This document shows positions 38,748 through 55,727 of a stretch of DNA of 64,000 nucleotides, in pieces. The stretch comes from the human T2T-CHM13v2.0 reference genome, Homo sapiens. Location of the stretch: assembly GCF_009914755.1 (NCBI RefSeq), contig NC_060934.1. The stretch is one strand, 5' to 3'. Under the pieces are notes generated by a model. The model saw nothing but the letters and a program-made list of their open reading frames with translations, ran no database searches and had not been told where the DNA came from. The position numbers and the translations under genes were made by a program. The first letter of the stretch is position 1. Every line of letters begins with the position of its first letter.

Positions 38748-38887
38748 AGTGCTTTCTCCTGTAATTCCCAAACAGAGGGCCTGGGCCTGGCTCTGAAGGT
38801 CTCTGCACAAGAGCAAGACAGGACAGGAGCAAGAACAAAGGCGAGGAGAGACAGAATCAGAGAGATGAGGAAGAAGATGGGGCTGGA
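38748..38887 (-). pseudogene. Prominin-like TM5 exon IFFLISLILSLLAFVLAPVLSCSCAETFRAR
   Basis: Hydrophobic helix gapless to the prominin TM5 pattern NxFWFSLGWCxxFFIPSIILSxKLAKYYRRM (F, SL, F, LS, A, F/Y-R in register); phase-0 start, phase-2 end before CTAAGT (decayed GTAAGT). Confidence 0.6.
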
Positions 38888-39034
38888 CTGGATGCAGAGA
38901 ATGAAAAGGAGAGACAACAGATGGGCATGGGGAGAGGGGCCTAGGAGGGAGAAACAGGGACATTTGCTCACTCTGGGGAGCAGAGGAGGCTCTCAGGTAT
39001 GAATGCTGGGAGGATGAAGGAAGGCACAGAGAGA

Positions 39035-40740
39035 AGGTCCTTTGGGGCCTGTCACCAGAATTATGGCCAATGCATAAAGCCAATGGGGCAGCTGAGCTAG
39101 ATCTGGTCTTCCAGAAGTTTCCATTATCTAGAGAATAGAGGAAAAGGGAAGGAGCTGTGATTGGCTGAGGAAAGGGGAATGGTGACCTCCACCAAGAAAG
39201 TGGAAGACCCATCTCATCCTGGGCCTCCTGGAGGCCCTGGAGGAGCAAACTGTTCAGGCTTTACATAGATTTCAGGTCCTCAGGCTTTGGCAGCCATTTG
39301 GATTCCAAGGTGATATGCAGTCATCTCAAATTCTATTATTTTTGTTTTATTCTGGAGAAAAGTAGGGAAGGTGGGCATTGCCCTTATCCCTAACAGCCCC
39401 AGGCAAGCTCTAGGAACAGCCCGGAGCCTCAGAATTGAGGGGCAGGCCTTTCCTACAGAGCCCTGTTGCTGGGGTGGGAAGGCTATTGGGAGCCACAGTA
39501 GAGAAAGGGAAGGAAGGGTAGACTGAGGGGAGGTATTGGGTCAGGGGGACACAGAGATCCTAGGCCAGGTCCTAGGACAGGGCAGGGGGGATGCTGATCT
39601 AGGTATCACTGAGATAGTTGTCCAGATGGGAAATCAAGTGACTGCTTATGACTGACTAGATAAGCTCGTTGTTCTCATAGCTTCTTTGGGATAGTGGAGG
39701 GTCAGTGTGGGGTATGGAATTTACAGGGAGCCTAAGGAGTGGGGAGGGACACATCAGCAACCACTTCTTCCCTCCACCATACTGGTCAGACCATAGTGAA
39801 TTCCCTAGTGAGTAGGTCTCCCCTGTGAATATTGGGAAAGGGAAGGACATAATGTGGCTTTTCTGGGAATAAAGAAAGGATTGCAGCCAGGCGTGGTGGC
39901 TCACACCTGTAATCCCAGCACTTTGGGAGGCCGAGGCAGGTGGATCATGAGGTCAGGAGATGGAGACCATCCTGGCTAACACGGTGAAACCCCATCTCTA
40001 CTAAAAATACAAAAATTAGCCAGGCGTGTTGGTGGGCGCCTGTAGTCCCAGCTACTTGGGAGGCTGAGGCAGAAGAATGGCCTGAACCCAGGAGGCGGAG
40101 CCTGCAGTGAGCCGAGATCGTGCCACTGCACTCCAGTCTGGGCGACAGAGCGAGACTCCATCTCAAAAAAAAAAAAAAGAGTTGCTTGGGAAGAAGAGAT
40201 GGAAATGGCTCCAAAGTGGAAGGTTGGAAGTGGATAGCCAGGAAGCATCAAACCAGAAAAGGGGAGTCAGAAAGAGAGCGAGGATCAGGCATGGTGGCTC
40301 ACGCCTGTAATCCTAACACTTTGGGAGGCCGAGGTGGGTGGATCGCTTGAGGTCAGGAGTTCAAGACCAGCTGGGAAACATAGTAAGACCCCCGTCTCCA
40401 TAAAAAATACAAAAAATCAGCCAGGCATGGTGGTATGCACCTGTAGTCCCAGCTACTCGGGAGGTTGAGGTAGGAGGATCACTTGGGCCTGGCAGGTTGA
40501 GGCTGCACTGAATCGAGATCATGCCACTGCAGCCTGGGTGACAGAGCAGGACCTTGTCAGAAAGAGAGAGAGAGAGAGAGAGGGAGGGAGGAAAGGAGGG
40601 AGGGAACACTGGATTTCCTAAACCTCTGTGGCTTCTCTAATAAATGATAGAGTTTCTCTTTGTAGAATGCAGCACCTTCCCAGGTGGCCCCAGAAAACGT
40701 TGAAGGGTTGTGGTTTTGTTTTCATGGCAAATCTAACTGG
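39035..40740 (-). pseudogene. Run of short decayed exons with pyrimidine-AG acceptors (starts ~40740, ~39822, ~39731, ~39351, ~39127)
   Basis: Five acceptors correspond in number and order to the five PROM1 exons preceding TM5; peptides such as SLGNSLWSDQ, NKTKIIEFE and IMETSGR give weak positional similarity. Confidence 0.45.
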
Positions 40741-40780
40741 AGCTGGGAATGGGCTCTTGATCCCATGTTTCTCACTCTGT

Positions 40781-40849
40781 TAGCCTGTTCATCATCCCCT
40801 TAATATCAGCAGTCAGACCCACAAGGGGTAGAGACCTCAGTGCTTGGCA
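40781..40849 (-). pseudogene. Prominin-like exon CQALRSLPLVGLTADIKGMMNRL
   Basis: Follows a pyrimidine tract (acceptor G lost); LPLVGLTADIKGMMNRL is gapless to PROM1 VNLLSFAYDLEAKANSL (72-nt exon). Confidence 0.6.
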
Positions 40850-41559
40850 TGAGGGAACACCAGAAGAGAACTTGAGGTCCATCCATTTTTCTCTTCTGAA
40901 TAGTGTTTTGGAATCTAAGCTCCAAGGGGTCAAGGAGGCAGGGGACAGCTGAGGAGTCATCAATAAAACAAAAGGTCTGGGAGCAGTGTAATCCTAGCTA
41001 CCAAGAGGCTAAGGCAGGAGGATCACTTGAGCCCAGGAGTTTGAGGCTGCAGAGAGCTATGATCTTGCTACTCAGCCTGAGTGATAGAGCAAGACCTCAT
41101 CTATTAAAAAAAAAAAGGCTGGCCGGGAGTGGTGGCTCATGCCTGTAATCCCAGCACTTTGAGAGGCCGAGGCGGGGGGATCACAAGGTCAGGAGATCGA
41201 CACCATCCTGGCCAACACGGTGAAACCCCATCTCTACTAAAAATACAAAAATTAGCTGGGCGTGGTGGCATGTGCCTGTAATCCCAACTACTTGGGAGGC
41301 TGAGGTAGGAGAATCGCTTGAACCTGGAATGAGAGGTTGCAGTGACCAGAGACTATACAACTGCACTCCAGCATGGGCAACAGAATGAGACTCCATCTCA
41401 AAAAATAAAATAAAAATAAAAATAAAAAAAGAAAAGAAAAAGAAAACAAAAGAGCAGCAGATCTCAGTCAGTTGCAAGTCTGCCCTGTGCCTCCCAGCTC
41501 TGTCGCCCAGCTTCAGTTGCCCATCATACCCTGTCAAGCCCTGGTCACCCCTTTTCTTT

Positions 41560-54891: not shown

Positions 54892-55123
54892 CCGGCCTTC
54901 AAGTAGCCTTGTCCTCTGCCTTTGTCTTCTGTGTTGATGCCACCTCAAGCTGGCCAGTCTCCTTGGGACCAAACAGCGTGCCTTCAATTAAGGTGCAGAG
55001 TTCTGATGGAGAGATATTTGAAGTTGAGGTGGAAATTGCCAAACAATCCGTGACTATCAAAACCATGTTGGAAGATTTGGGAATGAATGATAGAAGAGAT
55101 GATGACCTAGTCATTTATCACAT
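54892..55123 (+). pseudogene. SKP1: SKP1 processed pseudogene, 5' part (5' UTR plus codons 1-~49; ATG>GTG at 54978)
   Basis: [37 protein letters not shown] matches SKP1 [37 protein letters not shown]. Confidence 0.93.
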
Positions 55124-55128
55124 TTATT

Positions 55129-55268
55129 ATTATTATTAATTTTTTTAAGTGGAGATGAGGCCTCGCCATATTGCCTAGCCTGGTCTCAAACTCCTGGGCT
55201 CAAGTGATCCTCCTGCCTCAGCCTCCCAAAGTGCTGGGATTACAGGCATGAGCCACTGCACCCAGTCC
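55129..55268 (-). mobile_element. Alu left monomer (FLAM-like), right inversion breakpoint
   Basis: On minus, preceded by ACAAGGAGA (55277-55269) and followed by AATAAATGTGA (55128-55118). Confidence 0.8.
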
Positions 55269-55297
55269 TCTCCTTGTGGTTTATTCTCTCAGTAAGT
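55269..55297 (-). pseudogene. Prominin-like exon 2, 5' half ((D)LLRE*TTRR)
   Basis: Acceptor TTCTTCCTCCTCCACCTGGACCTAG, phase-1 start like PROM1 'DTLRK'; ends in ACAAGGAGA next to an Alu monomer head. Confidence 0.6.
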
Positions 55298-55469
55298 CTA
55301 GGTCCAGGTGGAGGAGGAGGAAGAATGTACCCAATTAGCCAGCACCTATTAGGCAAAGGACAGCCCCTCCTGCACCCCATCTTCATGCCAGGTTGTATCT
55401 TGATATACTGACATGGAATAGGAGGGCTTCAATGGGGTGCTTCAGGGCATCTCTGCTTTACTGCTAGCC

Positions 55470-55727
55470 TGGCCTACCTAACTTGCAATTTCCTAAATCA
55501 TAACTCCATCCCATTCCTGATTCTTCCTGCCTCCAGTCCTCCCACCTGTCCCACTTCAGGCTTCCAACTATTCTCACTCCTGTGGGTTTTAGAGCATCCC
55601 CTGGGGCCACCTCCTGGCAGTGAACTGGCTGACCCAGGAAAGGTAGAGGAACTATTTTTTGTCTGATAGGTGGCTGGGGACAGAGAAGTCCTAGCCCCAG
55701 ATCTCCCAGGGCTGCTGGGCGTATCAC
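55470..55727 (-). pseudogene. Prominin-like pseudogene, candidate first exon (signal-peptide-like start; GMGWSYDLGNCKLG)
   Basis: LGDLGLGLLCPQ...FLGQPVH loosely resembles the PROM2 N-terminus; expected position upstream of exon 2. Weak similarity. Confidence 0.4.

What the first reader, a model, noticed from the sequence alone, without database searches (positions are those of the whole stretch)
38748..55727. Fossil third prominin gene (PROM3-like unitary pseudogene) hidden among Alus downstream of HPS6
Seen in sequence: the non-repeat islands carry splice-bounded segments that translate to a TM1/Cys-rich/TM2 block, amphipathic helices and a final TM helix, in order. Established knowledge (recalled): PROM1 exons of 206, 121, 64, 90, 218 and 75 nt; here I reconstruct ~209, 119, 68, 90, 126+90 and 75 nt with compatible phases and gapless residue patterns. 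Humans have only PROM1 and PROM2, at other loci, and a prominin-3 is described in non-mammalian vertebrates. Inference: introns are present and the peptides are far from both human paralogs, so this is an in-situ dead gene rather than a retrocopy, probably the lost prominin-3 ortholog. I recall prom3 lying near LDB1/HPS6 in non-mammals but cannot verify that here.
Basis: partly seen in the sequence, partly recalled or inferred. Interest (0 to 1): 0.93.

Follow-up and report, generated by a model that had tools for sequence, protein, structure and literature searches.

The report
Fossil prominin-3 gene beside human HPS6
Between HPS6 and LDB1 on human chromosome 10 lie the broken, Alu-riddled remains of a third prominin (CD133-family) gene, with about ten exons still recognisable; it is likely the dead copy of prominin-3, a gene that fish, frogs, birds and platypus keep, so its loss in our lineage can now be traced.

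Summary
Real, and larger than reported. Ordinary searches (Pfam, tblastn, HMM) give nothing significant. A splice-aware scan using human PROM2 exon boundaries finds prominin exons 3, 4, 6-9, 14, 16, 20 and 22 in order. Chain score is 112 against 47±6 (max 58) in 22 controls. PROM1-only and PROM2-only profiles recover the same chain; PROM3 scores highest (105 vs 56 and 64). Exons carry stops, frameshifts and Alu insertions. Exons 3-6 are flipped by a ~4 kb inversion that also splits a SKP1 retrocopy.

True TM5 is at 35,718-35,607, outside the finding. Exons 1-2 and 10-13 are unsupported.

Orthology to prominin-3 is likely (~0.9). The 15 nearest references are PROM3, exon 7 has PROM3 length, a copy of human PROM2 or mammalian PROM1 is rejected, and published tables put fish and Xenopus prom3 with ldb1. 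The tree alone does not exclude the whole PROM2 clade. I found no description in print in ten searches.

The parts
51432..52930 (+). Exon 3 remnant (TM1, Cys-rich loop, start of TM2). AG acceptor, donor decayed to AT; holds a 24-bp tandem duplication and is split by an Alu cluster at ~51530-52789
   Evidence: 2 of 205 interval controls as good
53351..53469 (+). Exon 4 remnant (end of TM2 and first extracellular helix), 119 nt AG/GT, ends in a stop codon
   Evidence: score 28.7, 0 of 22 controls; 23.6, 0 of 20; 119-nt form
53676..53743 (+). Exon 5 candidate, 68 nt AG/GT, frameshifted (borderline)
   Evidence: 57 of 1042 interval controls as good
53822..54219 (+). Exon 6 remnant, 90 nt AG/GT after removing an Alu and one target-site copy (53888-54195)
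   Evidence: 14.5, 0 of 22 controls
45996..46184 (-). Exon 7 remnant, 189 nt AG/GT, two frameshifts; length fits amniote PROM3 (64 aa), not langur PROM1 (73 aa) or human PROM2 (68 aa)
   Evidence: (20.7, 0 of 22)
44004..44078 (-). Exon 8 remnant, 75 nt gapless, AG acceptor, donor decayed to AT
   Evidence: 16.2, 0 of 22; 20.5, 0 of 20
42434..42498 (-). Exon 9 remnant, 65 nt AG/GT, frameshift
   Evidence: 1 of 173 interval controls; 2 of 22
41566..42341 (-). Exon 10 candidate split by an Alu cluster (by eye; not above chance)
   Evidence: 71 of 173
39750..40270 (-). Exon 12/13 candidates (TM4 region; ambiguous, not above chance)
   Evidence: exon 12: 57 of 173; exon 13: 161 of 173
39599..39683 (-). 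Exon 14 remnant, 85 nt gapless, two stops, closest to the monotreme PROM3 profile
   Evidence: 15.3, 0 of 22; per-group scores
39213..39351 (-). Exon 15 candidate, AG acceptor, frameshift and stops (borderline)
   Evidence: 9 of 138
39056..39127 (-). Exon 16 remnant, 72 nt AG/GT, open
   Evidence: 0 of 138; 4 of 22
38378..38430 (-). Exon 18 candidate, 53 nt AG/GT (borderline)
   Evidence: 17 of 138
37202..37270 (-).
   Evidence: 1 of 138; 2 of 22
35607..35718 (-).
   Evidence: 17.6, 0 of 22; 0 of 1479
51180..55200 (.). ~4 kb inversion holding exons 3-6; breakpoints fall in two oppositely oriented Alu left-monomer pieces (~51110-51212 and ~55143-55265)
   Evidence: inverted Alu pair; SKP1 halves on opposite strands; chain rises from 70.6 to 105.0 when undone
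54943..55111 (+). 5' half of a SKP1 processed pseudogene lying in intron 6
   Evidence: Pfam Skp1_POZ E 1.1e-12
50136..50784 (-). 3' half of the same SKP1 processed pseudogene
   Evidence: Pfam Skp1 E 8.9e-20; 86-92% to the chr5 parent exons; 59 nt from the 5' half in the chr7 copy
38804..38960 (-).
   Evidence: 81% C+T; 147 of 1261 and 92 of 1261 controls as good

Best explanation
This is a dead, intron-containing prominin gene on the minus strand between HPS6 and LDB1, likely the human ortholog of prominin-3 left in place as a unitary pseudogene. Shown: at least ten exons (3, 4, 6-9, 14, 16, 20, 22) sit in prominin order at PROM2-type boundaries and phases, and carry stops, frameshifts, decayed splice sites and Alu insertions, so no prominin can be made. 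Shown: exons 3-6 are inverted and the inversion cuts a SKP1 retrocopy in two. Inferred order of events: the gene lost function after the monotreme split (platypus and echidna keep full-length proteins); it decayed neutrally by roughly 0.1-0.3 substitutions per site; Alus entered exons 3 and 6 and a SKP1 retrocopy entered intron 6; recombination between two inverted Alus then flipped the 4 kb segment. Inferred reason for loss: redundancy with PROM1/PROM2, which do the same job of shaping microvilli and cilia. It now most likely does nothing as a protein gene.
For: Chain scores far above controls under two scoring schemes; order shuffles 0 of 300 in each. Six exons beat all 22 controls; four more beat nearly all interval controls (2/205, 1/173, 0/138, 1/138). 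PROM1-only and PROM2-only profiles find the same chain (55.7 vs max 26.1; 64.4 vs max 27.2; 12 controls each) and PROM3 scores 105.0. The 15 nearest of 43 references are all PROM3, platypus and echidna first. Best tree: sister to monotreme PROM3 (43/81), inside PROM3 (81/96). AU test rejects grouping with human PROM2 (p 0.0017), with human PROM2 plus its nearest representative (0.0023) and with mammalian PROM1 (0.031). Exon 7 length fits PROM3. Synteny in print: teleost prom3 'associated with Ldb1/4'; fugu ldb1 and prom3 on scaffold 24; X. tropicalis Ldb1 on scaffold 640, which also holds prominin-3. The four exon-bearing islands searched matched only themselves in the genome.
Against: No standard search is significant: Pfam 0 of 42 frames, no chr10 hit genome-wide, PROM1 tblastn blank in the region, best PROM3 HMM chunk E 0.23. 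One scoring scheme did not separate target from controls (167.5 vs 110±60, max 230) until its composition bias was removed. Gap costs and decay distance were chosen after seeing data. The AU test does not reject the whole PROM2 clade (p 0.367) or PROM1 clade (p 0.069), and the query branch is long (2.0). Exons 1, 2, 10-13, 17, 19 and 21, including TM3 and TM4, are at chance. No other mammalian genome could be read.
Confidence: 0.88

Rival explanations
1. It is a real prominin pseudogene but not PROM3: an ancient duplicate of PROM2 (or PROM1) that landed near LDB1 and died.
For: AU tests cannot reject placement with the whole PROM2 (p 0.367) or PROM1 (p 0.069) clade. PROM2 profile scores equal PROM3 on exons 9, 16 and 20. 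The query is a long branch.
Against: Grouping with human PROM2 or mammalian PROM1 is rejected. PROM3 profile 105 vs 64 and 56. Exon 7 length. The site is where prom3 lies in fish and frog relative to ldb1.
Confidence: 0.08
2. The exons are chance matches in low-complexity or old repeat DNA, picked up by a flexible aligner.
For: Standard searches are not significant; one search did not discriminate; the 38.8 kb helix is such a chance match; identity to the best reference is only 21-25%.
Against: Chain is about 11 SD above matched human controls. Ten exons recur with three independently built paralog profiles. Exact lengths of 90, 75, 85, 72 and 69 nt. Order shuffles 0 of 300. The opposite strand scores like controls (44.4).
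Confidence: 0.03
3. Part of the relic has been re-used, for example as exons of an unannotated non-coding transcript or as regulatory DNA for HPS6 or LDB1.
For: Many splice dinucleotides survive and exons 6, 8, 16 and 20 are free of stops.
Against: The scoring rewards splice sites, so their survival is biased. 3 stops in 224 codons fits neutral decay. The supplied RefSeq table lists no gene or element in 33-64 kb. This would be an addition to, not a replacement of, the best explanation.
Confidence: 0.07

Closest known systems
Prominin-3 (zebrafish prom3 XP_684527; Xenopus prominin-3; NCBI 'prominin-1-A-like' of platypus P0142, echidna P0269, turtles, lizards, birds)
   Same: Highest profile and pairwise scores, exon 7 length, same neighbourhood with LDB1.
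   Different: Those are full-length proteins of about 780-850 aa. This has stops, frameshifts, Alus in exons and an inversion, at 21-25% identity where platypus and turtle share 46%.
Human PROM1 (CD133, chr4) and PROM2 (chr2)
   Same: Exon boundaries and phases as measured on PROM2; their profiles find the same chain. PROM1 is linked to LDB2 in the paralogous region.
   Different: Other chromosomes, intact, only 18-20% identical to the relic (langur PROM1 stood in for human). Direct descent from them is rejected.
Unitary pseudogenes such as GULOP and UOX (names recalled, from no call)
   Same: Disabled in place, introns kept, no working ortholog elsewhere in the genome.
   Different: Apparently far more decayed and invisible to BLAST and Pfam; no therian full-length ortholog was seen to anchor it, so mouse-anchored screens would be expected to miss it (inference).

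Membership tests
Prominin family (PF05478) | Profile match above the curated cut-off in a standard search | tested here: not met
   0 of 42 frames; none of 21 genome matches on chr10 (stricter first look)
Prominin family (PF05478) | Conserved vertebrate exon boundaries, phases and order | tested here: met
   10 of 22 exons scanned are supported and colinear
Prominin family (PF05478) | Five TM segments with a Cys-rich stretch after TM1 | tested here: inconclusive
   TM1/Cys/TM2 (exons 3-4) and TM5 (exon 22) found; TM3 and TM4 exons at chance
Prominin family (PF05478) | Intact reading frame giving a membrane glycoprotein | tested here: not met
   stops, frameshifts, Alus in exons, inversion: descendant of a member, not a working member
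Prominin-3 orthology group | Falls inside the PROM3 clade | tested here: inconclusive
   best tree yes, 81/96 unstarred; whole PROM2 and PROM1 clades not rejected; human PROM2 and mammalian PROM1 rejected
Prominin-3 orthology group | Closer in sequence to PROM3 than to PROM1 or PROM2 | tested here: met
   105.0 vs 55.7 and 64.4; 15 nearest of 43 references are PROM3
Prominin-3 orthology group | Linked to Ldb1 in the Lbx1 paralogon | tested here: met
   LDB1 begins at window 67097 (supplied table); outgroup linkage taken from paper tables, not from genomes
Prominin-3 orthology group | Adjacent to HPS6 in outgroups, same orientation | not testable with these tools
   no vertebrate genomes other than the window's; HPS6 absent from the paper read
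Unitary pseudogene | Disabling lesions with introns retained | tested here: met
Unitary pseudogene | No working copy of the same ortholog in the genome | tested here: met
   searches find only PROM1 and PROM2 loci (plus one E 0.6 match on chr15); both used a stricter first look
Unitary pseudogene | Not transcribed or translated into a functional product | not testable with these tools
   no expression data; supplied RefSeq table lists nothing in the interval
Processed pseudogene (retrocopy) | Exons joined without introns | tested here: not met
   exons spread over about 20 kb with splice signals
Duplicated pseudogene of human PROM2 or mammalian PROM1 | Groups with its parent gene | tested here: not met
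   AU p 0.0017 and 0.031

The most novel reading that the evidence does not exclude
Prominin-3 was still working in the placental ancestor and died only about 60-100 million years ago, separately in several lineages, so some living marsupial or placental may still carry an intact third prominin between HPS6 and LDB1. Only 3 stops in 224 codons (best fit near 0.1-0.15 substitutions per site) and many surviving splice sites allow this. That would overturn the statement that mammals have two prominin genes.
Probability: 0.2. Interest if true: 0.75.

Novelty: new member of a known kind. Interest (0 to 1): 0.6.

Why it matters
Reviews state that mammals have two prominin genes and non-mammals three. 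One paper inferred the Lbx1-linked copy was lost in tetrapods; another found it in frog, chicken and platypus but not in seven placental mammals by BLAST. A human fossil shows the gene died in place and gives exon coordinates, so its time and number of losses can be tested in existing mammalian alignments. Zebrafish prominin-3 controls cilia number and length in Kupffer's vesicle and left-right asymmetry, and it is the main prominin of frog kidney, so its loss bears on how PROM1 and PROM2 took over. It also shows that a lost gene invisible to BLAST and Pfam can be recovered using paralog exon boundaries. It is not a new mechanism and has no shown function today.

Tried and rejected
Pfam hmmscan of 42 island frames: no Prominin. 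Genome-wide PF05478 and platypus-protein searches: nothing on chr10. tblastn with mammalian PROM1: first run swamped by an Alu-containing database protein, masked run blank in the region. tblastn with 151 prominin proteins (148 library representatives plus three PROM1): 2 of 9 hits inside, both at exon 4, E 0.007 and 0.031. 121 PROM3-clade proteins and their HMM: the top two of 1749 chunks are exons 7 and 4, but at E 0.23 and 0.32. Codon-decay scoring against a genome-wide trinucleotide background did not discriminate, likely because CpG-rich and coding controls score high; replaced by a profile-composition null. I first read the 38.8 kb helix as TM4 and rejected it after exons 14-16 appeared upstream and it scored at chance. 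Exon 7 as 126+90 not found. By-eye candidates for exons 10-13, 17, 19 and 21 are not above chance. A search for a therian protein with the exon 4 translation found no candidate, which is weak evidence. PDB search found no prominin; the ESM Atlas gave only family clusters. Two slices (exons 6 and 7) were out of frame; the stop count was redone. Twin-priming was considered for the split SKP1 copy and rejected, because the halves are 4.2 kb apart with four prominin exons between them.
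Full report
OBSERVATION. I read 32.9-57 kb and translated 38.5-56.2 kb in six frames. Standard searches do not see a prominin. PF05478 over the genome gave 21 matches, all on chr2 or chr4, with a stricter first look. 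Pfam on 42 island frames gave no Prominin hit. Mammalian PROM1 proteins gave no tblastn hit in the region after Alu masking. Of 151 prominin proteins, 2 of 9 hits fell inside, both at one place, 53.33-53.46 kb. An HMM of mostly amniote PROM3 ranked two in-region chunks first of 1749, at E 0.23 and 0.32.

REFERENCES AND EXON MAP. A representative search with PROM1 and a quick tree separated PROM1, PROM2 and a third clade. A search with one member named it: platypus and echidna 'prominin-1-A-like', then turtles, lizards, birds, frogs, sharks and fish. No marsupial or placental was among the best 120 of 820 listed. Clade labels of unnamed representatives come and are mine. Spliced alignment to the human PROM2 locus gave exons of 244, 50, 203, 121, 64, 90, 203, 75, 64, 160, 153, 124, 92, 85, 147, 72, 93, 54, 81, 69, 90 and 107 nt. 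These boundaries were mapped onto the PROM3 profile, independently of the window.

SPLICE-AWARE TEST. Each of 22 exons was aligned whole, with splice-site scores and frameshifts allowed, and chained in order. Controls were 22 Alu-masked 10-kb stretches of neighbouring chr10 plus window 1-33,000, both strands, cut to the target's length. Amino-acid scoring gave 75.8 against 26.1±6.6 (max 37.1, 20 controls), and 60.9 without undoing the inversion; 0 of 300 order shuffles reached it. A codon-decay model with a genome-wide background did not discriminate (167.5 vs 110±60, max 230). With a profile-composition background it gave 112.2 against 46.6±5.6 (max 57.9, 22 controls), opposite strand 44.4, shuffles 0 of 300; exons 4, 6, 7, 8, 14 and 22 each beat all 22 controls. 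Searching only between those anchors, exons 3 (2 of 205 controls as good), 9 (1 of 173), 16 (0 of 138) and 20 (1 of 138) are supported; 5 (57 of 1042), 15 (9 of 138) and 18 (17 of 138) are borderline; 1, 2, 10, 11, 12, 13, 17, 19 and 21 are at chance. Profiles built from PROM1 alone or PROM2 alone recover the same chain, apart from a different end for exon 7 with PROM1 (55.7 vs control max 26.1; 64.4 vs 27.2); PROM3 gives 105.0 vs 33.7 (12 controls each, every second segment). Gap costs and decay distance were set after looking at the data, and exon 3 and 10 junctions were trimmed by hand.

Exon 7 is one 189-nt AG..GT exon; there is a GT at 126 nt but none at 216. The last helix at 38.8 kb is 81% pyrimidine and scores at chance as TM4 or TM5, while 35,718-35,607 scores above all 1479 controls as the TM5 exon. 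The relic therefore spans at least 35.6-54.2 kb. Its 5' end is not located.

THE INVERSION. Pfam finds the N-terminal part of SKP1 on the plus strand near 55.0 kb and the C-terminal part on the minus strand near 50.6 kb. In a chr7 retrocopy these parts are collinear and 59 nt apart. The ends of the flipped segment fall in two oppositely oriented Alu pieces. The retrocopy is 86-95% identical to the chr5 parent exons, so the inversion is younger than that insertion; a primate date of roughly 35-45 million years is my inference from recalled rates.

WHICH PROMININ. Using an all-paralog profile to align the relic, the 15 nearest of 43 references are PROM3, platypus and echidna first; summed exon scores are 194 (PROM3), 150 (PROM2), 139 (PROM1), and 157 for the two monotremes against 123 and 118 for the mammal-type PROM1 and PROM2 subsets. 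Exon 7 encodes 64 aa in amniote PROM3, 68 in human PROM2 and 73 in langur PROM1; 189 nt with two single-base losses fits the first. For the tree I dropped 17 of 43 references for speed and dropped exon 3 from the query row. The query falls in PROM3 (81/96, unstarred) on a 2.0 branch, sister to monotremes (43/81). AU tests reject grouping with human PROM2 (0.0017), with human PROM2 plus its nearest representative (0.0023) and with mammalian PROM1 (0.031), but not with the whole PROM2 (0.367) or PROM1 (0.069) clade. Synteny comes from print. PMC2446394 (passages, section 12 and supplement S2 passages; its Additional file 1 is not held) places fish Prom3 with Ldb1 in the Lbx1 paralogon, lists fugu ldb1 and prom3 on scaffold 24, stickleback VI, medaka 15 and zebrafish 13, and X. 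tropicalis Ldb1 on scaffold 640. PMC3108902 (passages) places X. tropicalis prominin-3 on scaffold 640; the two papers agree on scaffolds 393 and 30 for prom1 and prom2, so the numbering is comparable. LDB1 starts about 13 kb from exon 6 here. HPS6 adjacency in outgroups is untested.

HOW IT CAME TO BE. Shown: lesions in most exons, Alus inside exons 3 and 6, a 24-bp duplication in exon 3 and the inversion make a protein impossible. Inferred: loss after the monotreme split. Dating is loose. Three stops in 224 in-frame codons fit 0.1-0.15 substitutions per site best but allow 0.05-0.4. Identity to turtle, gecko and chicken PROM3 is 0.25, 0.22 and 0.21 against 0.46, 0.36 and 0.36 for platypus, which implies about 0.2-0.3. 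With a recalled rate near 2.2e-9 per site per year this is roughly 50-140 million years. Inferred cause: redundancy with PROM1 and PROM2; compensation by Prom2 is discussed in PMC10967083 and PMC6331727 (passages).

NOVELTY. Ten paper searches found no human prominin-3 pseudogene. [quoted passage not shown] PMC3296468 has no 'prom' in its main text and its supplement could not be read. Supplements of PMC6886504 (9 files; file 1 not searched, file 8 only for six approximate coordinate prefixes) and PMC10195156 do not name prominin. PMC7196652, the zebrafish prominin-3 paper, is not held; I saw it only as cited in PMC10967083 and PMC11776279 (passages). PMC11445533 (passages) was irrelevant; other listed papers were seen as search listings only. 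Subscription papers, unseen supplements and GENCODE/Ensembl annotation could already record the locus; the supplied RefSeq table does not.

VERDICT. A real prominin pseudogene (about 0.97), likely the prominin-3 ortholog in place (about 0.9 given that). A new member of a known kind. Interest 0.6: unusual in how deep the fossil is and in making the loss of a vertebrate ohnolog datable, but with no shown present function.

Noticed in passing
window 54943-55111 (+) and 50136-50784 (-): A SKP1 processed pseudogene, not in the supplied RefSeq table, cut in two by the inversion; at least eight other SKP1-like copies were listed on chr2, 4, 5, 7, 9, 12 and 22 besides the chr5 parent.
   Followed up: yes
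window ~51110-51212 and ~55143-55265: Inverted Alu left-monomer pair at the inversion ends; whether the inversion is fixed or polymorphic in humans is unknown.
   Followed up: partly
window 391-1385: CTCTCC hexamer run followed by a GC-rich 37-47 bp VNTR; this looks like an SVA element in an ARMH3 intron (label recalled, from no call).
   Followed up: no
window 51474-51529: 24-bp tandem duplication (2.3 copies, 93%) inside the TM1 part of exon 3, directly before the Alu tail.
   Followed up: yes
window ~45550-45850 and ~47900-48400: Stretches that resemble old LTR elements by eye (recalled signature), within introns 7 and 6; not classified.
   Followed up: no
proteins P0008 and P0286: Database gene-model errors: the Plecturocebus 'Prominin-1' begins with Alu-derived peptide; the Platysternon entry named 'fibroblast growth factor-binding protein 3' carries a Prominin domain.
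   Followed up: no
protein list: NCBI names PROM3-clade proteins 'prominin-1-A-like' in tetrapods and 'prominin-2' in sharks and bony fish, which hides the orthology group. Platypus isoform P0142 lacks most of exon 16.
   Followed up: partly
window ~38130-38215 and ~36700-37120 (-): By-eye candidates for exon 19 and for an Alu-split exon 21 in the expected order; the scan did not pick them above chance.
   Followed up: partly
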